NCBI GenBank assembly: GCA_965200265.1
Contig: OZ241357.1
Coordinates: 8,179-72,178, forward strand
Length of the DNA stretch: 64,000 bases
Source of the DNA: Alphaproteobacteria bacterium
Lineage (GTDB): Bacteria; Pseudomonadota; Alphaproteobacteria; UBA2966
Direction: 5' to 3'
The number at the start of each line of letters is the position of its first letter. Position 1 is the stretch's first letter. Below, in pieces: positions 29,208-64,000 of this stretch. The translations under genes were made by a program, and so were the position numbers. The notes below the pieces were generated by a model, which was not told the origin of the DNA, did no database searches, and worked only from the letters and a program-made list of their open reading frames with translations.

Positions 29208-29341
29208 ACGCCCCGCCCGGACGGGGGGCCGCCGGCGTCCGCGGAGCGGCGTTGCCAATCCCGGAGCGATGGTGTCCAATTCAAGGCGCGGCGCGGGTTG
29301 CGGGGAGCCGCCGCTTTCGAGAGGAACAGGGAGGGAGGACG

Positions 29342-30394: not shown

Positions 30395-30399
30395 TCCGC

Positions 30400-49929: not shown

Positions 49930-50012
49930 GAGTGGCTGGTTGCCGGTTGCCGGTGGTCAGTGCCCCCCGCGCGCACTGACCACTGGCCACCGACCACCGG
50001 CCACCGGCCGCG
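49930..50012. repeat. heptamer-tract relic plus 9-bp-stem hairpin overlapping the glcF 3' end
   Basis: GCTGGTT GCCGGTT GCCGGTG heptamers, then hairpin GGTCAGTGC-n9-GCACTGACC (49954-49980), then CACTGGC CACCGAC CACCGGC CACCGGC. The last about 20 glcF codons (PVAGGRWPVVSARGGH) are read from this sequence. Confidence 0.6.
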
Positions 50013-51276: not shown

Positions 51277-51391
51277 GGTGCCGCCGACGCTCCTTGATCG
51301 GGTCCTTGGGTATCCGCCCCGGAATATATCACCCCGTCCCTCCTGCCGTAGGGGTGGGGACAATTGACGGTGCGCGCCGACATGCGGCAGC

Positions 51392-53092
51392 TTGGGCGCA
51401 CATGCATCCGGCGGCCCATACGTGGAGAACGGCCCTCATGGCTCGACGAAGCCCCTCCGTTTCCGGCCCGGTCGCCGCGCACCGCGCGAGGCCGCGTTCG
51501 TGAACGCGCTGCACGCCGTCCTCAAACGGGTACGGGCGCGACTCGTGCTCATAATCCTCGTCGCGCTGCTGATCGGTCTGCTCGTGGTCTTCGTATGGGT
51601 CGGAGTTTTCGACCCGGCATGGGTCCATCGCTTCTTCTTCGGCGAGGTGAAGGACGCGGAGAAGTCTCGAATCCTGGAACTCATCGGCGTCGGCATGGGC
51701 GGCGTGCTGCTCGCCATCGGGGCGACGATCGCCAATCGCCGCGCCGTGGCGATGGAGGTGACCAACCGGGGCGCGGAGGACGGGCGGCGGCAGGAGCGGC
51801 TGAAGAACGCCATCGAGCATCTGGGCTACAAGTCGGACTCGGTGCGCCTGGGCGGGGCCTACGAACTCTTCCATCTGGCGCGGGATACCAAAGACCTGCG
51901 CCAGACGGTTATGGACATCCTCTGCGCCCACATCCGCCGGACAACGGGGGAGGACGGGTATCGGGAGACGTACAAGGAGAAGCCTTCGACGGAGGTGCAG
52001 AGCCTGCTGACTCTGTTGTTCAGACAGGAGCATGAAGTCTTCACGGGCCGCCGCATCGACTTGCAGGGAAGCTGGCTGAACGGGGCCATGCTCGAACGGG
52101 CGCGACTGCAACGGGCGGAACTTTCTGGAGCATATCTGCAAGGGGCGATCCTTCACGGGGCGGAACTGCAAGAGGCGATCCTTCACGGGGCGGAACTACA
52201 AGGGGCGAGCCTTCACGAAGCGCAACTGCAAGAGGCGTACCTTCACGAAGCGCAATTGCAAGGAGCGGACCTTCACATGGCGCAACTGCAAGGGGCGACC
52301 CTTCACGAAACGCAACTGCAAGGGGCGCAACTGCAACGAGCGAACCTTCACGGGGCGGAACTGCAAGAAGCGAACCTTCACGGGGCGGAACTGAAAGGAG
52401 CGAACCTTCACGGGGCGCAACTGCAAAGAGCGAACCTTCTCGAAGCGCAACTGCAAGGAGTGAACCTTCACGTGGCGCAACTGCAAGGAGCGTACCTTTA
52501 CGAAGCGCAACTGCAAGGGGCGGACCTTCACGGGGCGGAACTGCAAGGAGCGGATCTTCATGCGGTGCAACTACAAGGAATGAACCTTCACGGGGCGGAA
52601 CTGCAAGGAGCGAACCTTCACGCGGCGGAACTGCAAGGAGCGAACCTTCACGCGGTGGAACTACAAGGGGCGAACCTTCTCGAAGCGCGACTGCAAGGGG
52701 CGAACCTTCACGCGGTTCAACTGCAAGGAGCAAACCTTCACAAAGCGCAACTGCAAGAAGCGAACCTTCACGCGGCGCATCTGCAAGGGGTTACTTGCCA
52801 GGATAGCAGTCGTATATCGTTCAAGGGGCGTATCCGCGAAGGGATCGGCCGAGAGAACGACCTGTCAAAGGTGACGTTCGCGGGCGGGTTGAGTCAGGAA
52901 GACGTGGATTCTCTCGTTCAGGATTTGCCCGGCGAAAAAGCGAAAAAGTTGCGGGAGAAACTGGAACCGCATGTCGACAAGGAGGCGAGCAACGAATTGC
53001 CGGAAGGCAGAGGCGCCATTGTCGAGGCCTATACGGTGGAAGAAGCCGAGCGGTGGATCGCCGAATATGCGGAAGCGACGGGTGAAGCCTAA
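51392..53092 (+). CDS. membrane-anchored pentapeptide-repeat protein, paralog 1
   Basis: ORF 51392..53092; GTG 51500 (VNALHAVLKR) is a plausible alternative start. Two TM helices (LVLIILVALLIGLLVVFVWVGVF and ILELIGVGMGGVLLAIGATIA), then a helical module LKNAIEHLGYKSDSVRLGGAYELFHLA. About 48 consecutive A(N/D)L..-type pentapeptides follow, then a conserved tail AYTVEEAERWIAEYAEATGEA. Confidence 0.8.
   Translation: MGAHASGGPYVENGPHGSTKPLRFRPGRRAPREAAFVNALHAVLKRVRARLVLIILVALLIGLLVVFVWVGVFDPAWVHRFFFGEVKDAEKSRILELIGVGMGGVLLAIGATIANRRAVAMEVTNRGAEDGRRQERLKNAIEHLGYKSDSVRLGGAYELFHLARDTKDLRQTVMDILCAHIRRTTGEDGYRETYKEKPSTEVQSLLTLLFRQEHEVFTGRRIDLQGSWLNGAMLERARLQRAELSGAYLQGAILHGAELQEAILHGAELQGASLHEAQLQEAYLHEAQLQGADLHMAQLQGATLHETQLQGAQLQRANLHGAELQEANLHGAELKGANLHGAQLQRANLLEAQLQGVNLHVAQLQGAYLYEAQLQGADLHGAELQGADLHAVQLQGMNLHGAELQGANLHAAELQGANLHAVELQGANLLEARLQGANLHAVQLQGANLHKAQLQEANLHAAHLQGVTCQDSSRISFKGRIREGIGRENDLSKVTFAGGLSQEDVDSLVQDLPGEKAKKLREKLEPHVDKEASNELPEGRGAIVEAYTVEEAERWIAEYAEATGEA
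52076..52790 (+). repeat. about 24 tandem 30-bp units encoding the pentapeptide solenoid
   Basis: Near-identical units such as CTTCACGGGGCGGAACTGCAAGGAGCGAAC recur throughout, producing the mirror-image antisense ORFs 52041..52733 and 52196..52570. Confidence 0.85.
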
Positions 53093-53131
53093 GAGGACGC
53101 CGACGGCAAGGACGCGCCGACATGCGGCAGC

Positions 53132-54346
53132 TTGGGCGCGTGTGCATCCGGCGGCCCATACGTGGAGAACGGCCCTCATGGCTCTACGAAGCCCCTTCGT
53201 TTCCGGCCCGGTCGCCGCACGCCGCGCGAGGCCGCGTTCGTGAACGCGCTGCGAGCCATCCTCGAATGGGTACGGGAGTCGCCCGTGCTCGCGATTCTCG
53301 TCGCGCTGCTGATCGGTCTGCTCGTGGTCTTCGTGGTCGTCGGAGTTTTCGACCCGGCATGGGTCCATCGTTTCTTCGGCGTGGAGACGGGAACGGGAAA
53401 ATTCCGAATCCTGGAATTCATCGGCGTCGGCATGGGCGGCGTGCTGCTCGCCATCGGGGCGACGATCGCCCATCGCCGCGCCCGGGCGATGGAAGATGCC
53501 GCGAACGCGCAGGCGAAGGCGGTGGCGCAGCAGACAGTAGCCAACGAAGGCGCGGAGGACGGGCGGCGGCAGGAGCGGCTGAAGAACGCCATTGAGCATC
53601 TGGGCCACGAGTCGGACTCGGTGCGCTTGGGTGGGGCCTACGAACTCTTCCATCTGGCACAGGACACCGAGGATCTACGCCAGACGGTTATGGACATCCT
53701 CTGCGCCCACATCCGCCGGACCACGGGCGAGGCCGGGTATCGGGAGACGCACAAGGAGAAGCCTTCGACGGAGGTACAGAGCCTGTTGACCTTGCTGTTC
53801 GTACGGAAGCACGCGGTTTTCAGGGGTTGCCGCATCGACTTGCAGGAAAGTTGGTTGAACGGAGCAGAGCTCGCTGGAGCGTATTTATGTGGAGCATTTT
53901 TGGACGCGGCATATCTTCGACGTGCTACACTTGTTCATGCGTACTTACAGGGAGTTACATTTATAGGTACAGAAATGCAAAACTCCTATATTACGAATGC
54001 ACATATGCAAGGTTCTACTCTCATGGGGACTGAATTACAGGGAGCACAAGCTGTAAATACTTACTTTCAGGGTGCGATTTTACATGTAGTTGATTTGAAT
54101 GAATCCAATATAAATAATGCTGATTTTCGAGGTATAACACTGCCAAGATCAGGAGGTTTTTCGAACCTGATATTGGATTCCATAAATAAAGAAAGTGACT
54201 TGACTGGAATTATTTTTGGGCAAGAAAATAATCCACAAACTATACGAGTCATGCTTGAAAAAGCAGGTGCCATCATTGGAGCCTACACGGAGGAAGAAGC
54301 CGAGCGGTGGATCGCCGAATACAACGAAGCGACGGGCAGGGGATAG
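53132..54346 (+). CDS. membrane-anchored pentapeptide-repeat protein, paralog 2 (shorter, AT-richer repeat core)
   Basis: ORF 53132..54346 (alternative GTG 53240). The leader, TM and helical module are near-identical to paralog 1, as is the tail AYTEEEAERWIAEYNEATGRG. The central repeats (53.82-54.26 kb) are divergent and visibly lower in GC. The TAG stop lies 3 nt before the mod ATG. Confidence 0.8.
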   Translation: MGACASGGPYVENGPHGSTKPLRFRPGRRTPREAAFVNALRAILEWVRESPVLAILVALLIGLLVVFVVVGVFDPAWVHRFFGVETGTGKFRILEFIGVGMGGVLLAIGATIAHRRARAMEDAANAQAKAVAQQTVANEGAEDGRRQERLKNAIEHLGHESDSVRLGGAYELFHLAQDTEDLRQTVMDILCAHIRRTTGEAGYRETHKEKPSTEVQSLLTLLFVRKHAVFRGCRIDLQESWLNGAELAGAYLCGAFLDAAYLRRATLVHAYLQGVTFIGTEMQNSYITNAHMQGSTLMGTELQGAQAVNTYFQGAILHVVDLNESNINNADFRGITLPRSGGFSNLILDSINKESDLTGIIFGQENNPQTIRVMLEKAGAIIGAYTEEEAERWIAEYNEATGRG

Positions 54347-55987
54347 CCGATGCCGACGTTGCATTGGCTGACGCGGGACGAGGACGTCGGCGCGGCGTCG
54401 CGGGCGCCGTACCGGCTTCTGGAGGAGGCGCCGGAGCTTTCCGCCGGAGAGGCGGAAGCGGGCAACATGCTGATCCAGGGCGACAATCTGGAGGCGCTGA
54501 AGGCGCTGCTGCCGTTCTACGCCGGGCGGGTGAAGTGCGTCTACATCGACCCGCCGTACAACACACGCTCGGCTTTCGCGCACTACGACGACAACCTGGA
54601 GCACGCCAAGTGGCTCGCCATGATGTGGCCGCGGCTGGAGCTCCTGCGCGACCTGCTGGCGGACGACGGCTCGATCTGGGTCTCCATCGACGACAACGAG
54701 GCGCACTACCTCAAGGTCGTCATGGACGAAGTGTTCGGCCGCAACAATTTCATCGCAAATTTCGTCTGGCAGAAGAAATATACGCGCGCGAACGACGCAA
54801 CGTTCGTGAGCGATAATCACGATCATATAGTCTGCTTTGTGAAAGATCGTGATCAGTCATCTTTTCGAGGAATACAGCGTGACGAGAGACAGAATAAAGC
54901 ATACAAGAATCCTGATAACGATTCTCGTGGATCGTGGAAATCAACACCATTACATGCGAAAAGCGGAACAGAAAAGAATAGATACCCCTATACGTTTTCC
55001 AACAGAGTGACATGGACCCCGCCTGTCGGAACCTACCACCGATTCAGCAGGGAAACACTTGCTGAGCTTGACCGTACAGGGCAATTGTGGTTTGGAACGA
55101 AGGGGGATGCGACTCCTTCGCGCAAGTCGTACCTGTCGCAAGTGAAGCAGACAGTGGTTCCGGTTACGGTATGGCTGCACGACGAGTTCGGTAGCAATCA
55201 CGACGCCAAGAACGAGAACCGGGCCGTGTTGCCGAGCGCCTATTTCGATACCCCAAAGCCCGAGAAGCTATTGGGACGTATTCTTGAGATCGCCACCGAC
55301 CCGGGCGATCTCGTGCTCGACTCGTTCCTCGGCTCCGGCACCACGGCGGCGGTCGCGCACAAGATGGGCCGGCGCTGGATCGGCGTCGAGCTGGGCGAAC
55401 ACGCCGTCACCCACTGCGCGCCGCGCCTGAAGAAGGTGATCGAGGGCGAACAGGGCGGCATCTCGCGGTCGGCGGGCTGGACGGGCGGCGGCGGCTTCCG
55501 CTTCCACCGCCTGGGGCCGCCGGCCTTCGACGCCGACGGGCGCATCCGGCCGGACGTCTCCTTCCCCGTGCTCGCCGCCCACGTCTGGTTCGCCGAGACC
55601 GGCCGCCCGTGGACCGCGCCGGCGGCGCCGTCGCCCTTCCTCGGCGCGCGCGACGGGCGGGGCTACGCGCTGCTCTACAACGGCGTGCTCCGCGACCGCT
55701 CGGCCGCCGGCGGCAACGTGCTGACGCGGCGCACGCTGTCGGCCATCCGCGCCGCGGCGGGCGGTTTCGACGGGCCGCTCACCGTCTACGCCGCGCGGTC
55801 GGCGTTCCGCGACGCGACGCTGAAGGCGGAAGGGCTGGCCTTCCGGCAGACGCCCTACGACGTGACGGCGCGGGCCTGACCGATGGAGCTCAAGCCCTAT
55901 CAGGCCGAGGCGCTCGACACGCTGCGCCGCTTCCTGGAGGACGCGCGGATCGCCGGGCCGGCGGCGTCCTACGAGAAGCTCGCCGCC
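54328..55987 (+). repeat. segmental direct duplication, copy 1 (mod allele 1 plus first ~35 codons of res)
   Basis: 54350-54745 and 55290-55987 are near-identical by eye to 60196-60590 and 61140-61836. The centres differ. Confidence 0.85.
54350..55879 (+). CDS. mod: type III restriction-modification methyltransferase (Mod), allele 1
   Basis: ORF 54350..55879. Beta-class order: catalytic DPPY (VYIDPPYNT) first, a variable middle, then SAM motif VLDSFLGSGTT. Confidence 0.9.
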   Translation: MPTLHWLTRDEDVGAASRAPYRLLEEAPELSAGEAEAGNMLIQGDNLEALKALLPFYAGRVKCVYIDPPYNTRSAFAHYDDNLEHAKWLAMMWPRLELLRDLLADDGSIWVSIDDNEAHYLKVVMDEVFGRNNFIANFVWQKKYTRANDATFVSDNHDHIVCFVKDRDQSSFRGIQRDERQNKAYKNPDNDSRGSWKSTPLHAKSGTEKNRYPYTFSNRVTWTPPVGTYHRFSRETLAELDRTGQLWFGTKGDATPSRKSYLSQVKQTVVPVTVWLHDEFGSNHDAKNENRAVLPSAYFDTPKPEKLLGRILEIATDPGDLVLDSFLGSGTTAAVAHKMGRRWIGVELGEHAVTHCAPRLKKVIEGEQGGISRSAGWTGGGGFRFHRLGPPAFDADGRIRPDVSFPVLAAHVWFAETGRPWTAPAAPSPFLGARDGRGYALLYNGVLRDRSAAGGNVLTRRTLSAIRAAAGGFDGPLTVYAARSAFRDATLKAEGLAFRQTPYDVTARA

Positions 55988-56023
55988 CACGCTGTCGCCA
56001 AGGCGGCTCCCCGTGTAACATGA
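55883..56023 (+). pseudogene. 5' stub of type III res (46 codons)
   Basis: MELKPYQAEALDTLRRFLEDARIAGPAASY matches the start of the full res at 61732. Identity ends at about 55987 and the frame stops at TGA 56021-56023. Confidence 0.8.
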
Positions 56024-56138
56024 CGGGCAGGCTGAAGGTCTGCATGGTGTCTCAAACCAACAGCTTCGGAGACCCCTTACCCTCCTTCAAGGGCCCCGTC
56101 TTGCATGTGTCTGAACCAGGTCAGCGACCAGGGCCGGC

Positions 56139-57191
56139 ATGACCCGAACCACTGACATCAAGGCCATTGACTTCTGTTGTGGTGCCGGCGGATTGACTCG
56201 CGGCTTGCTTGACGCGGGCGTTTCGGTGGTGGCGGGGCTGGACAACGACGAGCGTCTACGCAAGACCTACGAGCGCAACAACAAGCCCAGCCGCTTCGTC
56301 GCTGGCGACATCGCCGAAGTGGAGATTGACGCGCTTCGGACCGATCTAGGCATCGACGAGGAAGACATCACCTTGTACGCCGCCTGCACACCTTGCCAGC
56401 CGTTCTCCAGCCTCAACACCGCCAAGGGCGAAGACGGCAGGAAATCTCTGCTGCTGGAGTTCGGCAAGATCGTGGCCCAGCGTCCGCCGGACTTCATCAT
56501 CGTGGAGAACGTGCCGGGCTTGCACAACGCCTTTGGCCTGGACATCTACCAGGAGTTCATGGCGGCTATCAAAGCCCAGGGCTTTTGCGCCGCCTCGGAC
56601 CTCTTGGACGCCAAGGACTACGGCGTTCCGCAAACGCGCAAGCGCTTCATTCTCGCCGCCGCCAGGGGCCGCGAGCCCCGGCTGCCTGTCGCCACGACCA
56701 GGAACAGCCCGGTCACCGTGCGCGAGTGCATCGAGAAGTACCCACCCTTGGCGGCCGGCGAACAAGACACCAGGTTCGTCAACCACGCCGCCCGCAAGCT
56801 GCCACCACACCATCAGAGAATCGTAGCCGCCGTGCCCACGGATGGCGGTAGCCGCAGCGACGTGGCTGACACGTCGATTCTGCTGCCCTGCCACCAACGC
56901 CACCCCAAGGCGCACAAGGACGTTTTCGGCCGCATGGCGTGGGATGCGCCCAGCCCGACGTTGACCTGCCGCTGCACGGATGTCTACTGTGGCCGCTTCG
57001 TCCACCCACAGCAGGACCGCGGCATCTCGCTGCGCGAAGCCGCCGCGCTACAGACGTTCGACGACAGCTACGAGTTCTTCGGCGGCTCGTTCCTGGAGCA
57101 GGCGCGGCAAATCGGCAACGCCGTTCCCGTGCGACTGGCAAGAGCCTTGGGAACGGCTGCCATCGAGTGCCTGCAACCGACCAGGGCCTAG
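56139..57191 (+). CDS. DNA (cytosine-5)-methyltransferase
   Basis: ORF 56139..57191. Motif I DFCCGAGG, IV TPCQPFS, VI ENVPGL, VIII QTRKRF, X GNAVPV. Confidence 0.93.
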   Translation: MTRTTDIKAIDFCCGAGGLTRGLLDAGVSVVAGLDNDERLRKTYERNNKPSRFVAGDIAEVEIDALRTDLGIDEEDITLYAACTPCQPFSSLNTAKGEDGRKSLLLEFGKIVAQRPPDFIIVENVPGLHNAFGLDIYQEFMAAIKAQGFCAASDLLDAKDYGVPQTRKRFILAAARGREPRLPVATTRNSPVTVRECIEKYPPLAAGEQDTRFVNHAARKLPPHHQRIVAAVPTDGGSRSDVADTSILLPCHQRHPKAHKDVFGRMAWDAPSPTLTCRCTDVYCGRFVHPQQDRGISLREAAALQTFDDSYEFFGGSFLEQARQIGNAVPVRLARALGTAAIECLQPTRA

Positions 57192-57205
57192 CCAAGGAAG
57201 TTGCC

Positions 57206-59113
57206 GTGTCCAGTCCCTACCGGATCGATTTCGACATTTCCACCATCAAGCACCTCGGCTTGCAAATGTACGCCACGCTGCCGCCGGTGGTCGGGGAACT
57301 GGTCGCCAACGCTTGGGACGCAAACGCCACCCAAGTCGAAATCACCATCCCGGAAACGCCGATAGACGAGCACACGTCGGAAATCGTCATCAAGGACAAC
57401 GGTGTCGGCATGTCCGACAGCGACATTCGCGAAAAGTACCTCATCGTCGGTCGCGACCGGCGCGAGAGCGAAGGCCGTGACCGGACCCCTGCGCCATTGA
57501 ACCGCCCAATCATGGGACGCAAGGGCATCGGCAAGTTCTCGGCGTTCGGCATCGCCCGAGAGCTGGAGATAGAGAGCGTCAGCAACGGCACCGTAAGCCG
57601 CTTCGTGATGGATTACGACACGATGCTCGCAAACGCATCACGCCGCCATGCCGAATTTCCACCGCTTCAGCCCACCGGATGCACAACGGAGGGCACGACG
57701 ATCAGGCTGAGGCGAATTACCAAGTATCGGACTCGGAGCATCTCGTTGCCTCGGTTGCGCCGAGGGCTCGCCAGACGCTTCGCCGTCATCGGCTCGCAGC
57801 GCCAATTCCAGGTCGTCATCAACGACTCGCGGATCTCCGTCGAGGAGCGGGAAATGCAGCGGCTGCTCGCGAAGGATGCCGACGGCAACGCCTATCTTTG
57901 GAAGTTTGAGGACGAGGAGATCATGCCCGAGACCGGTTGGAACGTATCCGGTTGGATCGGCGCATTGGACCGAACGACGTCAGATGCGGATGGCGTGGAC
58001 CGAGGCATCTCCATCATGGCGCGCGGTAAGCTCGTGCAGGAGCCGTTCGTGTTCAACGCCGTCGTCGGCCAACAATTTGCACTGTCGTACCTCGTCGGGG
58101 AACTGCACGCGGAGTTCGTCGATGCTGGCGAGGACACCATTGGAACGAGCCGCAACGTGTTGGTCTGGGATACTGAAGCGAACGCCAAACTCATGGAGTG
58201 GGGAAAACGGCAGGTAACGAAGATCGCTCGCGAGTGGGCGGAGAAACGCCAAACCGACAACATTCGTAAACTGGAGAACAACGACCTGTACCGCAGCTTC
58301 AAGGAGCGTGCGAGCGAAGTCGGCAGCAAACACGCGTTTCCATTGGCCGACAAACTTGTGCGACAAGCGATCAGTAAAAACCCCACGGCTGGCGTTGACG
58401 AACTAGAGCCCATCATCAAGACCTCTCTGGATTTTCTGGAGTTCGACACATTCTGGGAGATCGCCCAAGGAATGGTTCAATCCGATCTGGATGACGTTGC
58501 AGCGTTGCTTGGCTTGTTCAAGGAATGGGAGGTCGTGGAAGCGAAGGAGATGATGCGTGTTACCGAGGGCAGAATTACCACGATAGGGAAGCTGCAAGAC
58601 CTCATCGAGAAGAACGCCCTCGAAGTACCCACACTGCATAACTTTCTCAAGGAGTTCCCGTGGGTCATCGATCCACGCTGGACGCTGGTGGCTGATGAAG
58701 TTTGGTTCAGCGATATGTTGAAGGAGAAGTTCCCCGACGGCGATATTGCCGAGAAAGATAGGCGAATCGACTTTCTGTGCGTTCGCGAAAGTACGAACTT
58801 TGTGGTTGTTGAAATCAAGCGCCCAGGTAGCAAAGCTTCCAATAAGGAGTTGGATCAGATATTGCGCTATGTTTCTTTTGTTCGAGACTATGTGGAGCAA
58901 ACCACAGATCCTGAACTGGCGACTCGAAACGTGGTCGGCTACTTGCTTTGCGGCGATCTGGTTGATACTTGGGAGGTGCGAGGAAAAAAGAAAGTACTTG
59001 AGCAATCACAAATCTACGTGAGGCGATACGGGGACCTATTGGGTATGGTCAAGAAGATTCACCAAGAGTTCATCGAACGCTATGAACAGCTGCAAGAACG
59101 AATCAAGACGTGA
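57206..59113 (+). CDS. GHKL (MORC/MutL-like) ATPase fused to a C-terminal PD-(D/E)xK nuclease (DUF4263/Shedu-like)
   Basis: GTG 57206 follows AAGGAAG in ORF 56939..59113. N box ELVANAWDA, G1 DNGVGM, G2 GRKGIGKFS. C-terminus RIDFLCV...VVVEIKRPG carries a D...ExK signature. Starts 14 nt after the C5-methyltransferase. Confidence 0.78.
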   Translation: MSSPYRIDFDISTIKHLGLQMYATLPPVVGELVANAWDANATQVEITIPETPIDEHTSEIVIKDNGVGMSDSDIREKYLIVGRDRRESEGRDRTPAPLNRPIMGRKGIGKFSAFGIARELEIESVSNGTVSRFVMDYDTMLANASRRHAEFPPLQPTGCTTEGTTIRLRRITKYRTRSISLPRLRRGLARRFAVIGSQRQFQVVINDSRISVEEREMQRLLAKDADGNAYLWKFEDEEIMPETGWNVSGWIGALDRTTSDADGVDRGISIMARGKLVQEPFVFNAVVGQQFALSYLVGELHAEFVDAGEDTIGTSRNVLVWDTEANAKLMEWGKRQVTKIAREWAEKRQTDNIRKLENNDLYRSFKERASEVGSKHAFPLADKLVRQAISKNPTAGVDELEPIIKTSLDFLEFDTFWEIAQGMVQSDLDDVAALLGLFKEWEVVEAKEMMRVTEGRITTIGKLQDLIEKNALEVPTLHNFLKEFPWVIDPRWTLVADEVWFSDMLKEKFPDGDIAEKDRRIDFLCVRESTNFVVVEIKRPGSKASNKELDQILRYVSFVRDYVEQTTDPELATRNVVGYLLCGDLVDTWEVRGKKKVLEQSQIYVRRYGDLLGMVKKIHQEFIERYEQLQERIKT

Positions 59114-59152
59114 GCCGATGCGATGGCCAAGTCGGACATCGGCCGCGCGACC

Positions 59153-59290
59153 CGGTCACGGCCGGCGGAACGTCGATTCGATGTGGACGCGCGTCTGGTC
59201 GACTTCCGCCAAGCATGTCGACTCGCACGACAGGCAGGGGAGGCACCGGTCGATGTGCTTGACGGTCTCCGCCGCCGGGGGGCTGCCGGC
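59153..59290 (-). pseudogene. glcF fragment
   Basis: Colinear with glcF nt 50937-51096 (CGGCGGAACGTCG.TTCGATG.GGACGCGCGTCTGGTCGAC ... GTCGACTCGCACGACAGGCAGG.GAGGCA.CGGTCGATGTGCTTGACGGTCTCCGCCGCCGGGGGG). It has an internal deletion and reads ...AAETVKHIDRCLPCLSCESTC... then stops. Confidence 0.75.
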
Positions 59291-59425
59291 ATGACGCGGG
59301 GTCGTACCCCTCGGGGCGCGACCCGGACTTTCGCGAGATACGACGACCGGCGGTACACAAGGCGTTGCATCGGCTACGGTGCCGGTCTATTGAAGAAGTG
59401 TAAGGGTTGCTTGTGAGGATCGCCG

Positions 59426-60160
59426 ATGTCTACTGCTGATGAACGACAATACAAACCACCTCGTATAGATAAGCGGGCCTTCAATTGCCCGCATTGTGGT
59501 GCTTTTGCGCACCAATATAAATATCAGACGATGGTCCAAATGATAACAAGTGATGAAAATTTCACTGCAACAATATCTCGCGATATGTCACAAAACAGGA
59601 AGAATCCATTCATAACACAAAATAATTCATATTCTCAATATCAACGAGATATGGGAGGTATTTACTTTTTTCGTTGCGGCAGCTGTCATGAGTTATCCAT
59701 ATGGATATTCAGTGAGATGATCTGGCCCTCGAAGAGTGGCGTACCACTTCCAAATCCAGATTTGCCGGATGATGTCCGTAGGGATTATGAAGAGGCAGGT
59801 GCCATTCTCGGATCGTCACCTAGGGGTGCCGCAGCATTGTTACGCTTGAGTATCCAGAAGTTGTGCAAACACCTTGGCGAATCTGGGGATAACTTGAACA
59901 AAGACATCTCTGAATTGGTCAAAAAAGGTCTCCCTCCTCTAATAAAAGAGTCGTTGGATTCGGTCCGGGTAATCGGAAACCATGCTGTTCATCCAAGTCA
60001 TATCGATCTTCAAGATGATCCAGAAACAGCACGAATCTTGTTTGATCTTGTCAATATAATTGCGGATTCAATGATAAGCACCCCGAATAAGGTGAAGAAG
60101 GTATATGAAAGTCTTCCTGAAGGCGACAAGCAAGCGATAAAAAAGAGGGACGCGAGTTAG
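59426..60160 (+). CDS. DUF4145 domain protein with N-terminal 4-Cys zinc ribbon
   Basis: ORF 59426..60160, the lowest-GC gene in the window. CPHCG...CGSC, and a helical segment AAALLRLSIQKLCKHLG...LDSVRVIGNHAVH typical of DUF4145. Confidence 0.7.
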   Translation: MSTADERQYKPPRIDKRAFNCPHCGAFAHQYKYQTMVQMITSDENFTATISRDMSQNRKNPFITQNNSYSQYQRDMGGIYFFRCGSCHELSIWIFSEMIWPSKSGVPLPNPDLPDDVRRDYEEAGAILGSSPRGAAALLRLSIQKLCKHLGESGDNLNKDISELVKKGLPPLIKESLDSVRVIGNHAVHPSHIDLQDDPETARILFDLVNIIADSMISTPNKVKKVYESLPEGDKQAIKKRDAS

Positions 60161-60177
60161 CCGATGGCGAAGCATCG

Positions 60178-61836
60178 AGGAAGCGACAAGCACCTATGCC
60201 GACGCTGCATTGGCTGACGCGGGACGAGGACGTCGGCGCGGCGTCGCGGGCACCGTACCGGCTTCTGGAGGAAGCGCCGGAGCTTTCCGCCGGAGAGGCG
60301 GAAGCGGGCAACATGCTGATCCAGGGCGACAACCTGGAGGCGCTGAAGGCGCTGCTGCCGTTCTACGCCGGGCGGGTGAAGTGCGTCTACATCGACCCGC
60401 CGTACAACACGCGCTCGGCCTTCGCGCATTACGACGACAACCTGGAGCACGCCAAATGGCTCGCCATGATGTGGCCGCGGCTGGAGCTCCTGCGCGACCT
60501 GCTGGCGGACGACGGCTCGATCTGGGTCTCCATCGACGACAACGAGGCACACTACCTCAAGGTCGTCATGGACGAGGTGTTCGGAAGAACATGTTTCATC
60601 GGGAATATGATTTGGCAGAAGATATTTTCTCCGAAGAACAGTGCTCGGCACTTTTCGGCGGATCATGACCATATGTTTGTTTACGCTCGTGATTCGGAGA
60701 CTTGGTTGCCGAATCCGCTACCCAGAACGGAGAGGCAAGACAAGCTCTACAAGAATCCCGATAACGATCCACGCGGGCCTTGGACGTCGGGTGACCTTTC
60801 GGCTCGAAACTATTACGGCGCAGGGACCTATCCGGTGACTACTCCGAAAGGTAGAATCATTTCAGGCCCTCCCAAGGGTATGTATTGGCGTGTTTCCAAG
60901 GAGAAAATGGCTGATCTTGATCGAGAGGGGCGCATTTGGTGGGGATCAGGTGGCAACAATGTCCCCCGACTGAAACGCTATCTCTCGGAAGTAAGGACTG
61001 GAATCGTCCCGCAAACCATTTGGTTCAATCAGGATGTCGGCAATACGCAAGAAGCCAAGAAAGAGATCGTGAGCCTGTTCGGCGACGACGTGTTCGGCAC
61101 CCCCAAGCCCGAACGCCTGATCCAGCGCGTCCTGCACATCGCCACCGACCCGGGCGATCTCGTGCTCGACTCGTTCCTCGGCTCCGGCACCACGGCGGCG
61201 GTCGCGCACAAGATGGGCCGGCGCTGGATCGGTATCGAGCTGGGCGAGCATGCCGTCACCCACTGTGCGCCGCGCCTGAAGAAGGTGATCGAGGGCGAAC
61301 GGGGCGGCATCTCCACGGCAGCGGGCTGGACGGGCGGCGGCGGCTTCCGCTTTCACCGCCTGGGGCCGCCCGCCTTCGACGCCGACGGGCGCATCCGGCC
61401 CGACGTCTCCTTCCCCGTGCTCGCCGCCCACGTCTGGTTCGCCGAGACCGGCCGCCCGTGGACCGCGCCGGAGGCGCCGTCGCCCTTCCTCGGCGCGCGC
61501 GACGGGCGGGGCTACGCGCTGCTCTACAACGGCGTGCTCCGGGACCGCTCGGCCGCCGGCGGCAACGTGCTGACGCGCCGCACGCTGTCGGCCATCCGCG
61601 CCGCGGCGGGCGGTTTCGACGGGCCGCTCACCGTCTACGCCGCACGGTCGGCGTTCCGCGACGCGACGCTGAAGGCGGAAGGGCTGGCCTTTCGGCAGAC
61701 GCCCTACGACGTGACGGCGCGGGCCTGACCGATGGAGCTCAAGCCCTATCAGGCCGAGGCGCTCGACACGCTGCGCCGCTTCCTGGAGGACGCGCGGATC
61801 GCCGGGCCGGCGGCGTCCTACAGGAAGCTCGCCGCC
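60178..61836 (+). repeat. segmental direct duplication, copy 2 (mod allele 2 plus start of intact res)
   Basis: See copy 1. The offset between copies is about 5.85 kb. Confidence 0.85.
60196..61728 (+). CDS. mod: type III restriction-modification methyltransferase (Mod), allele 2
   Basis: ORF 60196..61728. The first 133 aa and the last ~205 aa are essentially identical to allele 1. The central ~170 aa (TCFIGNMIWQKIF...FGTPKPERLIQRVLH) diverge strongly. Confidence 0.9.
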   Translation: MPTLHWLTRDEDVGAASRAPYRLLEEAPELSAGEAEAGNMLIQGDNLEALKALLPFYAGRVKCVYIDPPYNTRSAFAHYDDNLEHAKWLAMMWPRLELLRDLLADDGSIWVSIDDNEAHYLKVVMDEVFGRTCFIGNMIWQKIFSPKNSARHFSADHDHMFVYARDSETWLPNPLPRTERQDKLYKNPDNDPRGPWTSGDLSARNYYGAGTYPVTTPKGRIISGPPKGMYWRVSKEKMADLDREGRIWWGSGGNNVPRLKRYLSEVRTGIVPQTIWFNQDVGNTQEAKKEIVSLFGDDVFGTPKPERLIQRVLHIATDPGDLVLDSFLGSGTTAAVAHKMGRRWIGIELGEHAVTHCAPRLKKVIEGERGGISTAAGWTGGGGFRFHRLGPPAFDADGRIRPDVSFPVLAAHVWFAETGRPWTAPEAPSPFLGARDGRGYALLYNGVLRDRSAAGGNVLTRRTLSAIRAAAGGFDGPLTVYAARSAFRDATLKAEGLAFRQTPYDVTARA

Positions 61837-64000
61837 GAACCCGAACTCGCGGCGCGGCTCGGGCGCTACGCCGGGACCTACGCGCCGCTCAAGGGCCTGC
61901 CGGAGACGCCGCACGTCTGCCTGCGCCTGCCGACCGGCGGCGGCAAGACGCTCCTCGCCGCCCATGCCGTCGCCGTCGCCCGCCGCGCCTGGGTCGATCG
62001 CGACCATCCCCTCGTCCTGTGGCTGGCGCCGACCGCGACCATCCGCCGCCAGACGGCGGAGGCGCTGAAGAACCCGCGCCACCCGTGCCGCCGCGCCCTC
62101 GACGCGGCGTTCGCGGGCCGGGTGCGCGTCTTCGACATCGCCGACTTCGCCCAGCTTCGCCCTCACGACCTGCGCGGCAGGTGCTGCGTCGTCGTCGGCA
62201 CCATCCAGACGCTGCGGGTCAAGGACACCGACGGCCGCAAGGTCTACGCCCACCACGAGGACATGGAGGCGCACTTCGCCGCCCTGCCCGCGGCCGCGAT
62301 CGATGCCGCCGCCGCGCCGGGGCTGGAGCGCCTGGAGAACGGCCGGGTCAAGTTCTCCTTCGCCAACCTGCTGCATCTCCAGCGCCCGCTGATGATCGTC
62401 GACGAGGCGCACAACGCCGTCACCGGGCTCACGCGCGAGATGCAGGAGCGGGTGAACCCGTGCGCCGTGATCGAGTTCACGGCCACGCCGCGCAAGGGCT
62501 CCAACGTCCTGTTCAACGCCACGGCGTCGGAACTGAAGCGCGAGGCGATGATCAAGCTGCCGGTCGTACTCGCCGAGCACGACGCCTGGGAGGGCGCGGT
62601 GACCGCCGCCGTCGCCGCCCGCGCGGCCCTGGCCGCGGCGGCGAAGGGGGAGCGCGAGTACGTCCGCCCGGTGGCCCTGTTCCAGGCGCAGCCGAAGAAC
62701 CGCGAGGTGACGGTCGCGGCGCTGAAGCAGCACCTGATCGAGGTCGAGCGCGTGCCCGAGGAGAAGATCGCCGTCGCCACCGGCGCCCAGCGCGAGCTCG
62801 ACGGGATCGACCTGTTCGACCCGGACTGCCCGATCGAGCACGTCGTCACCGTCGAGGCGCTCAAGGAAGGCTGGGACTGCTCCTTCGCCTACGTCTTCTG
62901 TTCGGTGTCGCGGATCGGGAGCGCCACCGACGTCGAGCAGCTTCTCGGCCGGGTGCTGCGGATGCCCTACGCCGAACGGCGCGCCGACGCCGCCCTGAAC
63001 AAGGCCCATGCCTTCGTCTGCGAACCGACGTTCGGCGCCGCGGCGAAGGCGCTGACGGACAGGCTGGTGGGCATGGGCTTCGAGGAGGACGAGGCGGAAG
63101 ACGCCATCGAGCGGCGGCAGCCGGCGCTGGACGGGAACGGCGGCCTGTTCCGTCCCGGCGGCGATGGGGATCGCGCGGAGACGCAAGGCCCGGCGTCGCC
63201 GGCGGACCGGGGAGAGGCCTTCGCGGTTCCGCGCCTGATGTCGGAAGTCCAGGAGGAGCTGGAGCTCGCCGACACCGACGTGTTCATGGAGAGTCACGAC
63301 TGGTCGCTCGCCGGCCATCCGTTCCGGCCGGACGCAAGCGCGTTCGAGATCCTCGAGACGGCGCGCGGGTTCGAGATCGACGTCGACGGCGACCGCGTGG
63401 TCTACAGGCAGACCGGCGCCGAAGCGCAGTTCATGCTCGACGTCGACGTGGAGGGCTGGACGCCGCAGAGCCTGGTGCTGTGGCTCGACCGCGAGGTCCG
63501 CGCCATCGACATCGACCAGGGCGACCTGATCGCCTGGCTGTCGGGCTTCGTGAACCACCTGACGGCGGCGTGCGGCCTCCCGCCCGCCGCGCTCATGCGC
63601 GCCAGGTTCCTGCTCGCGCGCAAGGCGAAAGGGCGGATTGCCGCCATCCGCCGCGAGGAGCGCGCGAAGGTCTACCAGCAGCGCCTGTTCGCGCCGGAAG
63701 CCCGGCCGCGGGTCTCCTTCGACCACGCCTTCGCGTTCCGCGACGGCATGTACGCCGACGAACGGCGCTACCGCGGGCGCTGGCGGCCGAACCGGCACTT
63801 CCTCGGCGCCGACGCCGTGCCCGCCTTCGACGGCGCCGACGACGGCGAGGAGGTCCAATGCGCCCAGGCCCTCGATTCCCTGCCCGGCGTGACGTTCTGG
63901 ATCAGGAACGTCGCGCGGCACCCGGAGTCGTTCCGGCTGCCGCTCGCGGAAGGCTGGTTCTATCCCGATTTCGTGGCCCGGCTCGACGACGGCCGGTTCC
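61732..64000 (+). CDS. res: type III restriction endonuclease Res subunit (helicase-nuclease), 3' end beyond window
   Basis: Not in the ORF track because no stop falls within the window; translated by hand from ATG 61732 with no stop to nt 64000. Motif I LPTGGGKT, II IVDEAHN, III FTATP, then ALKEGWDC and QLLGRVLR. Approaching the nuclease core, ...GWFYPDFVA. Confidence 0.88.
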   Translation, partial: MELKPYQAEALDTLRRFLEDARIAGPAASYRKLAAEPELAARLGRYAGTYAPLKGLPETPHVCLRLPTGGGKTLLAAHAVAVARRAWVDRDHPLVLWLAPTATIRRQTAEALKNPRHPCRRALDAAFAGRVRVFDIADFAQLRPHDLRGRCCVVVGTIQTLRVKDTDGRKVYAHHEDMEAHFAALPAAAIDAAAAPGLERLENGRVKFSFANLLHLQRPLMIVDEAHNAVTGLTREMQERVNPCAVIEFTATPRKGSNVLFNATASELKREAMIKLPVVLAEHDAWEGAVTAAVAARAALAAAAKGEREYVRPVALFQAQPKNREVTVAALKQHLIEVERVPEEKIAVATGAQRELDGIDLFDPDCPIEHVVTVEALKEGWDCSFAYVFCSVSRIGSATDVEQLLGRVLRMPYAERRADAALNKAHAFVCEPTFGAAAKALTDRLVGMGFEEDEAEDAIERRQPALDGNGGLFRPGGDGDRAETQGPASPADRGEAFAVPRLMSEVQEELELADTDVFMESHDWSLAGHPFRPDASAFEILETARGFEIDVDGDRVVYRQTGAEAQFMLDVDVEGWTPQSLVLWLDREVRAIDIDQGDLIAWLSGFVNHLTAACGLPPAALMRARFLLARKAKGRIAAIRREERAKVYQQRLFAPEARPRVSFDHAFAFRDGMYADERRYRGRWRPNRHFLGADAVPAFDGADDGEEVQCAQALDSLPGVTFWIRNVARHPESFRLPLAEGWFYPDFVARLDDGRF

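What the first reader, a model, noticed from the sequence alone, without database searches (positions are those of the whole stretch)
54328..61836. Two type III mod alleles with identical ends and different target-recognition cores; only the distal one keeps res
The 5' ~400 nt and 3' ~700 nt of mod, plus the first ~100 nt of res, occur twice as near-identical direct repeats about 5.85 kb apart. The central TRD-encoding parts are strongly divergent and visibly AT-richer. Copy 1 is followed by a 46-codon res stub, and copy 2 by intact res. Homologous recombination or gene conversion across the conserved arms could swap the TRD paired with Res, or delete the intervening 5.8-kb cassette. This would be a specificity-switching layout analogous to hsdS shufflons and to the TRD 'domain movement' reported for Helicobacter mod genes, but built on direct repeats with no recombinase in sight. 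It also means the cell probably carries two type III methylation specificities but one nuclease.
Basis: partly seen in the sequence, partly recalled or inferred. Interest (0 to 1): 0.75.

Follow-up and report, generated by a model that had tools for sequence, protein, structure and literature searches.

The report
Two methylase alleles, one restriction nuclease
A high-GC bacterial defence locus carries two intact type III DNA-methylase genes that differ only in their DNA-recognition middle and share one restriction-nuclease gene; related genomes show the shared ends are repeatedly made alike by recombination, but nothing points to a fast programmed switch.

Summary
mod1 (54350-55879) and mod2 (60196-61728) share a 392-nt 5' arm (97.2%) and a 702-nt 3' arm (96.7%, including the first 105 nt of res). 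Their ~550-nt, low-GC3 recognition cores are about 50% identical. mod1 is followed by a 46-codon res stub; mod2 by res, which is open to the window end.

Between the copies lie a HgiDII/BbrUII-like type II m5C R-M pair, a decayed glcF fragment and a PD-T7-4 gene.

Both mods look functional: the ORFs are intact and arm dN/dS is 0.02-0.15. Each core allele recurs in related alphaproteobacterial MAGs.

In three related genomes a res-less TRD1 mod and a res-linked mod lie 44 kb to ~1 Mb apart. Their arms are nevertheless 95-98% identical within a genome and 80-93% between genomes. Arm trees follow the genome; core trees follow the allele (100% bootstrap).

Recombination at the core borders is therefore real and recurrent, on an evolutionary timescale. 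The window's arms have dS of about 0.1 with evenly spread differences. There are no inverted repeats, simple-sequence repeats or recombinase.

Most likely two Mod specificities use one Res in trans. This is a new variant of known type III diversity, not a shufflon.

The parts
49957..51363 (-). glcF (glycolate oxidase Fe-S subunit type), the housekeeping gene flanking the island
   Evidence: Pfam CCG + 4Fe-4S domains. It is the source homologue of the fragment at 59142-59290.
51392..53092 (+). PRP_A: 2-TM N-terminal part plus long pentapeptide-repeat domain. Its repeats are encoded by a 15/30-nt DNA array at 52100-52788.
   Evidence: Pfam Pentapeptide 5e-63; TRF array; N-terminal part 88-89% identical in nt to PRP_B.
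53132..54346 (+). PRP_B: paralogous TM + pentapeptide-repeat gene. Its stop is 3 nt before the mod1 ATG. Its C-terminal half is low-GC and variable.
   Evidence: Pfam; composition. A PRP gene sits directly upstream of mod in 31 of 79 related loci.
54347..54738 (+). 5' arm, copy 1
   Evidence: 97.2% identical to 60193-60584. All codon differences in codons 1-131 are synonymous.
54350..55879 (+). mod1: type III Mod, 509 aa, TRD1 allele, intact
   Evidence: PF01555 and full-length PADLOC MTase_III. The TRD1 core is 82-90% identical in nt to L001-L004.
54739..55286 (+). Variable core 1 (motif VII/VIII region + TRD + start of the C-terminal MTase half). GC3 0.55.
   Evidence: Mapped onto EcoP15I Mod, using the domain limits in PMC4490356.
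55287..55988 (+). 3' arm, copy 1 (motifs I-III, CTD, mod stop, first 105 nt of res)
   Evidence: 96.7% identical to 61136-61837.
55883..56023 (+). res stub, 46 codons
   Evidence: Homology to res ends at 55988.
56139..57191 (+). C5 cytosine DNA methyltransferase of the inserted type II R-M
   Evidence: PF00145 1e-49; TIGR00675; PADLOC MTase_II.
57206..59113 (+). GHKL-ATPase restriction enzyme of the BbrUII/HgiDII family. Start is probably the GTG at 57206, after AAGGAAG.
   Evidence: NCBIfam NF050001 7.8e-103, full-length alignment but below the curated cutoff. Also HATPase_c_3, a weak SduA_C/PD-(D/E)xK-type hit and PADLOC REase_II.
59142..59290 (-). glcF pseudogene fragment
   Evidence: 90.6% identical over 149 aligned nt to 50925-51096, with an 18-nt deletion and an in-frame stop.
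59426..60160 (+). PD-T7-4 / DUF4145 defence gene, low GC
   Evidence: PADLOC PD-T7-4 1e-78, full length; PF13643.
60193..60584 (+). 5' arm, copy 2
60196..61728 (+). mod2: type III Mod, 510 aa, TRD2 allele, intact
   Evidence: The TRD2 core is 80% identical in nt (86% aa) to L008.
60585..61135 (+). Variable core 2, GC3 0.59
61136..61837 (+). 3' arm, copy 2
61732..64000 (+). res: type III Res, open for 756 codons and cut by the window end
   Evidence: PF04851 and PADLOC REase_III 1e-164. PTGGGKT and DEAH motifs. Relatives are 882-892 aa with FYPD...EYK.

Best explanation
This is a composite defence island beside glcF, built around a type III R-M module of the form 'TM-pentapeptide-repeat protein - Mod - Res'.

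Content. It holds two functional Mod paralogues with different recognition domains (TRD1, TRD2) and one Res.

Origin (inferred). A partial tandem duplication ran from inside glcF to res nt 105. It left a res stub and a glcF fragment at its junction. An HgiDII-like type II m5C R-M pair now sits at that junction, and PD-T7-4 sits in front of mod2 (a faint trace suggests it displaced the pentapeptide gene).

How it works (inferred). Both Mods methylate their own asymmetric site. The N-terminal dimerisation domain is 100% identical, and the C-terminal MTase half plus CTD (which docks Res in EcoP15I) is 97.5% identical. Either Mod dimer, and probably mixed dimers, can therefore recruit the single Res. 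That gives two restriction specificities from one nuclease with no DNA rearrangement.

How the arms stay alike (shown by comparison). Homologous recombination or gene conversion between mod paralogues, with breakpoints at the TRD borders, homogenises the arms within a genome while distinct TRDs are kept. This is slow and evolutionary, not a programmed switch.

What the repeats allow. They could also collapse the array by deletion. A 3'-arm crossover would give mod1-res and a 5'-arm crossover mod2-res. Either deletion removes an addictive type II R-M pair, which should select against it (inference).
For: Shown:
- Repeat anatomy and intact ORFs.
- Purifying selection since the arms last matched: 5' arm 12 synonymous and 0 non-synonymous codons; 3' arm 12 and 5; dN/dS 0.02 and 0.15.
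- Derived changes fall on both copies: 11 in mod1, 18 in mod2. The res-less copy is not decaying faster.
- TRD1 orthologues are intact in L001-L005, L081 and L082. Four of them (L001, L003, L004, L081) have no res next to them. TRD2 has an orthologue in L008 with res, in a genome that also has a res-less TRD1 mod.
- Within-genome arm identity is 95-98% in the window and three other genomes, against 80-93% between genomes. Cores group by allele. NJ trees give 100% bootstrap for each. Arm dS is 0.05-0.18 within genomes and 0.21-0.55 between.
- Breakpoints differ among genomes (393-439 and 895-940 nt from the ATG), as expected for homologous rather than site-specific exchange.
- The glcF fragment and res stub flank the cassette.
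- Cassette identities.

From established knowledge:
- In EcoP15I the NTD and MTase domains form the Mod dimer, the ModA CTD and MTase domain contact Res, and the TRD is an insert (PMC4490356). Our arms map onto those parts.
- Loci with three mod genes and one res exist in Mycoplasma bovis and M. pulmonis (bioRxiv 10.64898/2026.05.01.722158).
Against: - No expression, methylome or protein-interaction data exist. Use of Res by Mod1 in trans is an inference.
- Mod1 could be a stand-alone methylase.
- The window's arm divergence (dS ~0.1) is about equal to the neutral decay of the glcF fragment (9.4%). In this genome alone, one duplication followed by replacement of one TRD would explain the arms without later conversion.
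- All comparison genomes are MAGs of other species. No second genome of this species was found.
- The order of events in the duplication-and-insertion scenario cannot be determined, and no mobile-element ends were found at the cassette borders.
- The last ~130 codons of res lie outside the window.
Confidence: 0.55

Rival explanations
1. Programmed or high-frequency specificity switching. Recombination between the direct-repeat arms regularly swaps which TRD is joined to res, or excises the 5.8-kb cassette, generating population heterogeneity as hsdS shufflons do.
For: - Long, 97%-identical direct repeats with perfect blocks up to 92 and 129 nt are adequate RecA substrates.
- Recombination at these borders has happened repeatedly in evolution.
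- Both predicted deletion products exist as natural arrangements in relatives L002 and L008.
Against: - Arm dS is 0.09-0.14, with differences evenly spread and no recent conversion tract (P 0.2-0.5 against random placement).
- Direct repeats give one-way deletion, not reversible switching.
- No inverted repeats, recombinase or SSR are present.
- Deletion would remove a type II R-M pair; its loss is expected to be harmful.
- The same allele pairs are homogenised when 44 kb to ~1 Mb apart, so the tandem layout is incidental.
Confidence: 0.1
2. Mod1 is a stand-alone (orphan) methyltransferase that never works with Res. It either acts as an epigenetic regulator or protects the genome against TRD1-specific type III systems circulating in the community. 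Arm similarity is then a passive by-product of gene conversion between similar sequences.
For: - PRP-mod(TRD1) occurs as a tight two-gene unit without res among housekeeping genes in L001, L003, L004 and L081.
- Complete TRD1 systems with res exist in other genomes, including a Nitrospirales MAG: L002, L005, L082. Protective methylation would therefore be useful.
- Mod dimers are active methylases on their own (PMC4490356).
Against: The CTD, whose described protein-protein role in EcoP15I is docking Res, is kept under purifying selection in the res-less copy. It stays 95-98% identical at the nucleotide level to the res-linked paralogue in four genomes. This does not exclude the orphan model, because conversion alone could maintain it.
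Confidence: 0.28
3. Mod1 and its res stub are a decaying, non-functional remnant of a duplication.
For: The neighbouring res is truncated to 46 codons, and the co-duplicated glcF fragment is clearly decayed.
Against: - mod1 is a full ORF with all motifs.
- There are 0 non-synonymous changes in 131 N-terminal codons, against 12 synonymous.
- mod1 has fewer derived changes than mod2.
- Intact TRD1 orthologues occur in at least seven other genomes.
Confidence: 0.04
4. Assembly artefact: two strain variants of one locus were joined in tandem by the assembler.
For: Relatives are metagenome-assembled genomes, and the window probably is too (one search shows a 3.55-Mb contig). Near-identical repeats are a classic site of misassembly.
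Against: - The junction is not a strain-variant boundary. It has a 105-nt res stub, 150 nt of unique sequence, a complete type II R-M pair, and a 149-nt decayed glcF fragment with its own deletion and stop codon.
- The arms differ at 34 positions, so reads can be placed unambiguously.
Confidence: 0.03

Closest known systems
TRD 'domain movement' between type III mod genes of Helicobacter pylori (Furuta & Kobayashi 2012, PMC3467074)
   Same: - The TRD behaves as a cassette between conserved methyltransferase motifs.
- TRD and non-TRD regions give incongruent trees.
- Exchange occurs between mod genes at different loci of one genome by homologous recombination.
   Different: - In H. pylori the flanks are short (8-117 bp) and the non-TRD regions are poorly conserved between orthologous groups. 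Here the arms are 392 and 702 nt at 95-98% identity.
- The clearest signal here is homogenisation of the arms, while the two TRDs persist.
[quoted passage not shown] The window is a tandem case.
Hypervariable central region of phase-variable modA/mod in Haemophilus influenzae and Neisseria (Bayliss et al. 2006, PMC1557822)
   Same: Conserved 5' and 3' mod ends, a hypervariable central TRD, a conserved res, and recombination and horizontal transfer of mod sequences.
   Different: Those are alleles at one locus in different strains, switched ON/OFF by repeat tracts. Here two alleles coexist in one genome, there is no repeat tract, and one copy lacks res.
Type III loci with several mod genes and one res in Mycoplasma bovis PG45 (Mbo45ORF167P) and M. 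pulmonis (bioRxiv 10.64898/2026.05.01.722158)
   Same: Several full-length Mod paralogues (~70% aa identity there, 78% here) are encoded with a single res. Only the mod next to res overlaps or abuts it.
   Different: - The Mycoplasma mods each carry AG repeat tracts (phase variation) and lie together in a single cluster with res.
- Here there are no repeats, the two mods are separated by 4.2 kb of unrelated defence genes, and a res stub and pentapeptide-repeat genes are present.
Type I R-M systems with duplicated hsdS genes that switch specificity by recombination (Atack et al. 2020, PMC7394358; SpnD39III, PMC4190663)
   Same: Duplicated specificity modules share conserved sequence, and one set of catalytic subunits serves several specificities.
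   Different: Those use inverted repeats, usually with a site-specific recombinase, and switch reversibly at high frequency. None of these features is present here.
EcoP15I (Mod2Res1) as the mechanistic model (PMC4490356, PMC4005696)
   Same: Beta-class Mod with motif IV before motif I and an inserted TRD; SF2 helicase-nuclease Res; mod directly upstream of res.
   Different: Mod here is shorter (509 vs 644 aa). A conserved TM + pentapeptide-repeat gene precedes mod. Two Mods accompany one Res.

Membership tests
Type III restriction-modification system | Mod is a beta-class amino-methyltransferase: motif IV (DPPY) lies N-terminal to motif I (FxGxG), with the TRD between them | tested here: met
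   Both Mods have DPPY at aa 67-70. FLGSGTT is at aa 326-332 in Mod1 and 327-333 in Mod2. They match PF01555, the full-length PADLOC MTase_III model, and PDB Mods 6K0W, 4ZCF (EcoP15I) and 7DSU.
Type III restriction-modification system | Res has SF2 helicase motifs | tested here: met
   PF04851 1.4e-15; PADLOC REase_III 1.3e-164; PTGGGKT and DEAH present.
Type III restriction-modification system | Res has a C-terminal PD-(D/E)xK nuclease motif | tested here: inconclusive
   The window ends at '...FYPDFVARLDDGRF', so the E-x-K part lies beyond the window. Relatives L002 and L072 read FYPDF...VVEYKG.
Type III restriction-modification system | mod lies immediately upstream of res on the same strand | tested here: met
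   mod2 TGA-ccg-ATG res. mod1 has the same junction, but res is cut to 46 codons.
Type III restriction-modification system | Mod2Res1 complex with ATP-dependent cleavage at inversely oriented asymmetric sites | not testable with these tools
   Needs biochemistry.
Phasevarion-type phase-variable mod | Simple-sequence repeat tract in the mod ORF or promoter | tested here: not met
   TRF at minimum score 30 finds only a 9-nt x 2.3 match in each 5' arm.
Invertible / shufflon-type specificity switch | Inverted repeats flanking the exchangeable specificity segments | tested here: not met
   No inverted pairs in 50-64 kb; the arms are direct.
Invertible / shufflon-type specificity switch | Associated site-specific recombinase gene | tested here: not met
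   The main reading frames in 51.4-64 kb are assigned to other families. The other large ORFs scanned in the window are not recombinases.
TRD exchange between mod genes (domain movement / allelic TRD replacement) | Incongruent phylogenies of the TRD and non-TRD parts | tested here: met
   The arm tree groups paralogues by genome (100% bootstrap, four genomes). The core tree groups by allele (100%).
TRD exchange between mod genes (domain movement / allelic TRD replacement) | Breakpoints lie in conserved methyltransferase sequence at both TRD borders | tested here: met
   Breaks after codon 131 (…EVFGR) and at codon ~313 (IATDPGD, just before motif I). Positions vary by about 45 nt among genomes.
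Multi-mod, single-res type III locus (Mycoplasma type) | Two or more full-length mod paralogues with one res in one locus | tested here: met
Multi-mod, single-res type III locus (Mycoplasma type) | Each mod individually phase-variable through a repeat tract | tested here: not met

The most novel reading that the evidence does not exclude
'Pentapeptide-repeat membrane protein - Mod - Res' may be an undescribed three-component subtype of type III R-M, common in MAGs from at least eight phylum-level groups, many named for taxa I know as sponge symbionts. In it, several Mod paralogues anywhere in the chromosome would form a library of specificities for one Res. Their Res-docking and dimerisation arms would be kept interchangeable by intragenomic gene conversion. 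The membrane-anchored pentapeptide-repeat protein, a DNA-mimic fold, would regulate or localise the enzyme. The window would then be the first tandem instance of such a library.
Probability: 0.3. Interest if true: 0.7.

Novelty: new variant of a known kind. Interest (0 to 1): 0.5.

Why it matters
Type III systems are usually described as one Mod with one Res. Their diversification is known mainly from pathogens, through phase variation and TRD exchange between strains. Three points here go beyond that.

- A res-less Mod and a res-linked Mod with different recognition domains coexist stably across several species.
- Their non-recognition parts evolve in concert, whatever the distance or orientation between the genes.
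- A conserved pentapeptide-repeat gene accompanies mod in about 40% of related loci.

If one Res really serves several Mods, a genome can widen its restriction repertoire at the cost of one small gene. Counts of 'orphan' methylases in metagenomes would then misjudge restriction capacity. The locus also gives a testable case of how an addictive type II R-M pair lying between repeats may stabilise a duplication.

Tried and rejected
- **Same-species comparison.** Exact-sequence look-ups of Mod1, Mod2 and P0016 found nothing on record. No second genome of this species was found, so strain comparison was impossible.
- **Metagenome scan.** It returned only distant (68% identity or less over full-length matches) or short contigs, with no further full tandem mod pair.
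- **Internal deletion in the res stub.** The stub tail 'KLAAHAVA' resembles res codons 75-81 (19 of 21 nt). This is no better than shuffled controls once the shared CTCGCCGCC is removed, so I dropped the idea.
- **Mobile-element ends.** A search for direct or inverted repeats at the cassette borders (55960-56145 vs 59095-59160) found nothing above chance. The 150-nt spacer after the stub has no homologue in the window or in the 80 genome loci (L001-L080).
- **Promoter and terminator scan.** Counts were at or below shuffle expectation, so it was uninformative for this high-GC genome.
- **Arms kept alike by purifying selection alone.** This was my first idea. It cannot explain why synonymous sites are more alike within genomes than between them.
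- **Recent partial conversion tracts.** Differences are spread as expected at random.
- **Literature link.** A search linking pentapeptide-repeat proteins to type III R-M found nothing relevant.
- **PRP remnant upstream of mod2.** Only an 8-nt match (GAAGCGAC, 60180-60187) to the PRP 3' end. I treat it as weak.
Full report

Yes. The window has two direct repeats at offsets of 5846 and 5849 nt.

- The 5' arm is 54347-54738 vs 60193-60584: 392 nt with 11 differences (97.2%). It starts 3 nt before each ATG.
- The 3' arm is 55287-55988 vs 61136-61837: 702 nt with 23 differences (96.7%). It covers the end of mod, the TGA-ccg-ATG junction and the first 105 nt of res.
- Neither arm has another copy in the 64-kb window.
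- Between the arms, the cores (54739-55286 and 60585-61135) are only ~49-55% identical. BLAST finds one 37-nt match.
- The cores are compositionally foreign. Their GC3 is 0.55 and 0.59, against 0.91-0.97 in the arms. The window GC is 0.69.

Both genes are intact. mod1 (54350-55879) encodes 509 aa and mod2 (60196-61728) encodes 510 aa. Both have DPPY and FLGSGTT motifs, match PF01555, and match the PADLOC type III methylase model over its full length.

At the protein level, residues 1-131 are 100% identical. The last 197 residues differ at 5 positions. The core is ~38-40% identical.

mod1 is followed by a 46-codon res stub (55883-56023). mod2 is followed by res starting at 61732. That res has PF04851, PADLOC REase_III at 1e-164, and PTGGGKT and DEAH motifs. 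It is open for 756 codons to the window end. Relatives have 882-892 aa, and the window stops inside the nuclease motif (FYPD…). The last ~130 codons therefore cannot be checked.

**2. What lies around and between the copies**

Upstream is the housekeeping gene glcF (49957-51363, minus strand). It is followed by two tandem paralogous genes, PRP_A (51392-53092) and PRP_B (53132-54346). Each encodes two predicted TM helices (my reading of the sequence) plus a pentapeptide-repeat domain. The PRP_B stop lies 3 nt before the mod1 ATG.

The 4.2 kb between the res stub and mod2 holds, in order:

- 150 nt with no homologue in the window or in the 80 genome loci;
- a C5 cytosine methyltransferase, 56139-57191;
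- a GHKL-ATPase restriction enzyme of the BbrUII/HgiDII family, ~57206-59113 (NCBIfam NF050001, 7.8e-103, full-length alignment but below the curated cutoff; PADLOC REase_II);
- a 149-nt glcF pseudogene fragment, 59142-59290, 90.6% identical to the true glcF, with an 18-nt deletion and a stop codon;
- a low-GC PD-T7-4/DUF4145 gene, 59426-60160 (PADLOC 1e-78).

No recombinase, inverted repeat or simple-sequence repeat is present. The locus is an accreted defence island, not a dedicated switching cassette.

**3. Evidence from related genomes**

A scan of one genome per species with the two-Mod alignment gave 80 loci. The closest are complete alphaproteobacterial MAG chromosomes, 88-92% identical in nucleotides in the arms. 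More distant relatives are named Nitrospirales, Entotheonella, Latescibacterota, Binatia and others. I know these taxa as typical of marine sponge microbiomes; the record titles name no host, so that is inference. Published sponge-microbiome surveys report defence and restriction-modification features in those communities (abstract starts and term counts only, PMC5649159 and PMC5099237). No genome of the window's own species was found.

Mapping the window's proteins onto these loci showed four things.

- **(a) A conserved upstream gene.** A TM + pentapeptide-repeat gene lies directly upstream of mod in 31 of 79 loci across many phyla, and within 4 kb in six more.
- **(b) Both core alleles recur.** The TRD1 core recurs at 82-90% nucleotide identity in L001-L004, and also in L005, L081 and L082. 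In L001, L003, L004 and L081 it is a tight PRP-mod pair with no res. In L002, L005 and L082 res follows. The TRD2 core recurs in L008 (80% nt, 86% aa) with res. That genome (OZ241738.1) also has a res-less TRD1 mod (L004), the same pair as the window.
- **(c) An insertion hotspot.** In about 20 loci the mod-res junction holds 0.5-2 kb inserts. Pfam identifies an RHH-PIN pair in L082. By my reading of the ORF translations, others encode a PIN-like protein (L007), HicAB-like pairs, GIY-YIG proteins, a DUF262 protein and others.
- **(d) Upstream mod stubs.** Seven loci carry a mod 5' stub 1.4-5.4 kb upstream of an intact mod. The stubs in L014, L023, L027 and L072 are 82-97% identical to the resident gene. 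In L043 the stub is separated from mod by a GHKL enzyme plus C5 methylase pair, the same kind of cassette as in the window.

Partial duplications and cassette insertions at this module are therefore recurrent.

**4. The key test: concerted evolution of the arms**

Twelve mod genes were aligned and split into arms and core.

| Genome | Loci | Separation | 5' arm / core / 3' arm identity (%) |
|---|---|---|---|
| Window | mod1 / mod2 | 5.8 kb, direct | 96.7 / 49 / 96.6 |
| OZ251446.1 | L001 / L007 | ~0.95 Mb, same orientation | 96.4 / 46 / 97.3 |
| OZ241738.1 | L004 / L008 | ~44 kb, inverted | 98.2 / 50 / 96.1 |
| OZ251509.1 | L003 / L009 | ~0.53 Mb, inverted | 95.2 / 47 / 95.3 |

- Between genomes the arms are only 80-93% identical, even for genes with the same TRD.
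- NJ trees with 200 bootstraps group the arms by genome (100% in all four). They group the cores by allele: 100% for TRD2, and TRD1 forms one clade.
- Nei-Gojobori synonymous divergence of the arms is 0.05-0.18 within genomes and 0.21-0.55 between.
- Between-genome divergence of the TRD1 core, the 3' arm and res track one another. The window is ~90% identical to L002, ~88% to L001/L007, and ~81-85% to L004/L008 and L003/L009. TRD1, TRD2 and res therefore look vertically inherited in this clade, while the arms have been homogenised independently in each lineage.
- Breakpoints vary (393-439 and 895-940 nt from the ATG), which fits homologous rather than site-specific exchange.

The formal alternative is that each lineage duplicated its mod and then imported a TRD. 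That also requires recombination at the same borders.

**5. How recent and how frequent?**

Not recent.

- The window's arms have dS of 0.139 (5') and 0.089 (3').
- Differences are placed as expected at random. The longest perfect blocks are 92 and 129 nt (P = 0.54 and 0.21).
- The neutral decay of the co-located glcF fragment (9.4%) is of the same order.

In this genome the arms may date from a single event: a tandem duplication running from inside glcF to res nt 105. That would explain why a res stub and a glcF fragment flank the cassette. Whether the type II cassette caused the duplication or landed later at its neutral junction cannot be told. No element ends were found.

**6. Are both Mods functional?**

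All sequence evidence says yes.

- Arm changes are 12 synonymous and 0 non-synonymous codons in the 5' arm, and 12 and 5 in the 3' arm. dN/dS is 0.02 and 0.15.
- Polarising with outgroups assigns 11 derived changes to mod1 and 18 to mod2. The res-less copy is not decaying faster.
- Intact TRD1 orthologues persist in at least seven other genomes.

**7. Mechanism**

In EcoP15I the NTD and MTase domains make the Mod dimer. The CTD and MTase domain of one Mod dock Res, and the TRD (aa 263-384) is an insert between motifs IV-VIII and X, I-III (PMC4490356).

Alignment to EcoP15I and 6K0W places our core (aa 132-312) over motif VII/VIII, the TRD and the start of the C-terminal half. It places the arms over the NTD, the N-terminal MTase half, motifs I-III and the CTD.

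The surfaces that dimerise and bind Res are therefore the identical parts. I infer the following:

- Either Mod dimer, and probably mixed dimers, can load the single Res. That gives two restriction specificities with no rearrangement.
- Recombination between the arms is a slow evolutionary process that keeps the paralogues compatible.
- A crossover between the direct repeats would collapse the array to mod1-res (3' arm) or mod2-res (5' arm). Both forms exist in relatives L002 and L008.
- Such a deletion would remove a type II R-M pair, whose loss is expected to be harmful. This is inference from the known addictive behaviour of such pairs.

The main rival is that Mod1 is a pure orphan methylase.

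**8. Comparison with what is known**

- **Conserved mod ends with a hypervariable TRD.** This is known from Haemophilus and Neisseria (PMC1557822).
- **TRD movement between mod loci of one genome.** This is known from H. pylori (PMC3467074). There the flanks are short and weakly similar, and the authors note that unequal recombination of tandem paralogues was not seen for type III systems.
- **Loci with three mods and one res.** These exist in Mycoplasma bovis and M. pulmonis, where each mod has an AG repeat tract (bioRxiv 10.64898/2026.05.01.722158).
- **A third component upstream of mod.** Type III systems with one (a helicase-like ATPase) have been reported (PMC8259958), but I found no report of a pentapeptide-repeat partner.

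The shufflon analogy fails its membership tests: no inverted repeats and no recombinase.

**9. Verdict**

This is a new variant of a known kind. It has a tandem, repeat-free, two-Mod/one-Res type III locus, long homogenised arms and a conserved pentapeptide-repeat partner. Interest is moderate (0.5). The most interesting open points are trans use of Res by several Mods, and the role of the pentapeptide-repeat protein.

Noticed in passing
window 51392-54346; loci L001-L005, L007-L009, L013, L018 and others: A gene for a protein with two predicted TM helices (my reading) and a pentapeptide-repeat domain lies directly upstream of this mod family, 3 nt before the mod ATG in the window. It does so in 31 of 79 related loci from many phyla. 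Its N-terminal part is conserved and high-GC; its repeat part is variable and low-GC. No paper linking pentapeptide-repeat proteins to type III R-M was found.
   Followed up: partly
window 52100-52788: The PRP_A repeat domain is encoded by a DNA-level tandem array (15-nt and 30-nt periods, ~38 units, 79-82% matches for the 30-nt period). It could expand or contract by slippage.
   Followed up: no
L005, L007, L018, L020, L024, L030, L034, L041, L046, L052, L054, L068, L073-L075, L080, L082 (between mod and res): The mod-res junction of relatives is an insertion hotspot holding 0.5-2 kb inserts, with res intact downstream. Pfam identifies an RHH-PIN pair in L082. By my reading of the ORF translations, others encode HicAB-like pairs, GIY-YIG proteins, a DUF262 protein, an HD-like protein plus a second gene, and DUF3800-like proteins.
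   Followed up: partly
L014 4434-4614; L023 6574-6821; L027 2144-2477; L043 6127-6273; L067 8514-8687; L072 8203-8601; L075 8143-8212: mod 5' stubs (29-109 codons) lie 1.4-5.4 kb upstream of an intact mod. Four of them (L014, L023, L027, L072) are 82-97% identical to the resident gene. In L043 a GHKL enzyme plus C5 methylase pair lies between the stub and mod, mirroring the window's cassette.
   Followed up: partly
window 59142-59290: A decayed fragment of glcF (90.6% identical, 18-nt deletion, in-frame stop) sits 8.2 kb from the true glcF in the same orientation. It marks an old segmental duplication.
   Followed up: yes
L006 and L026 (Pseudomonadales MAG OY282430.1): Two complete mod-res loci in one genome have different cores. 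Their 3' arm plus whole res is 93.5% identical over 3.3 kb and their 5' arm 88.9%. Homogenisation also occurs outside the alphaproteobacterial clade and can include res.
   Followed up: partly
window 3-2066: A large ORF cut by the window start matches the Eco57I-type N6-adenine methylase domain (PF07669, PF02384). It may be another R-M or BREX-like component 50 kb away.
   Followed up: no
window 29176-34680: A 1834-aa ORF has a C-terminal autotransporter beta-domain (PF03797).
   Followed up: no
L001 7454-8009 and 19823-20393; L007 16252-16622: A ~95-nt sequence repeated about every 154 nt occurs near the mod loci of OZ251446.1 and is shared between its two loci. Its nature is unknown.
   Followed up: no
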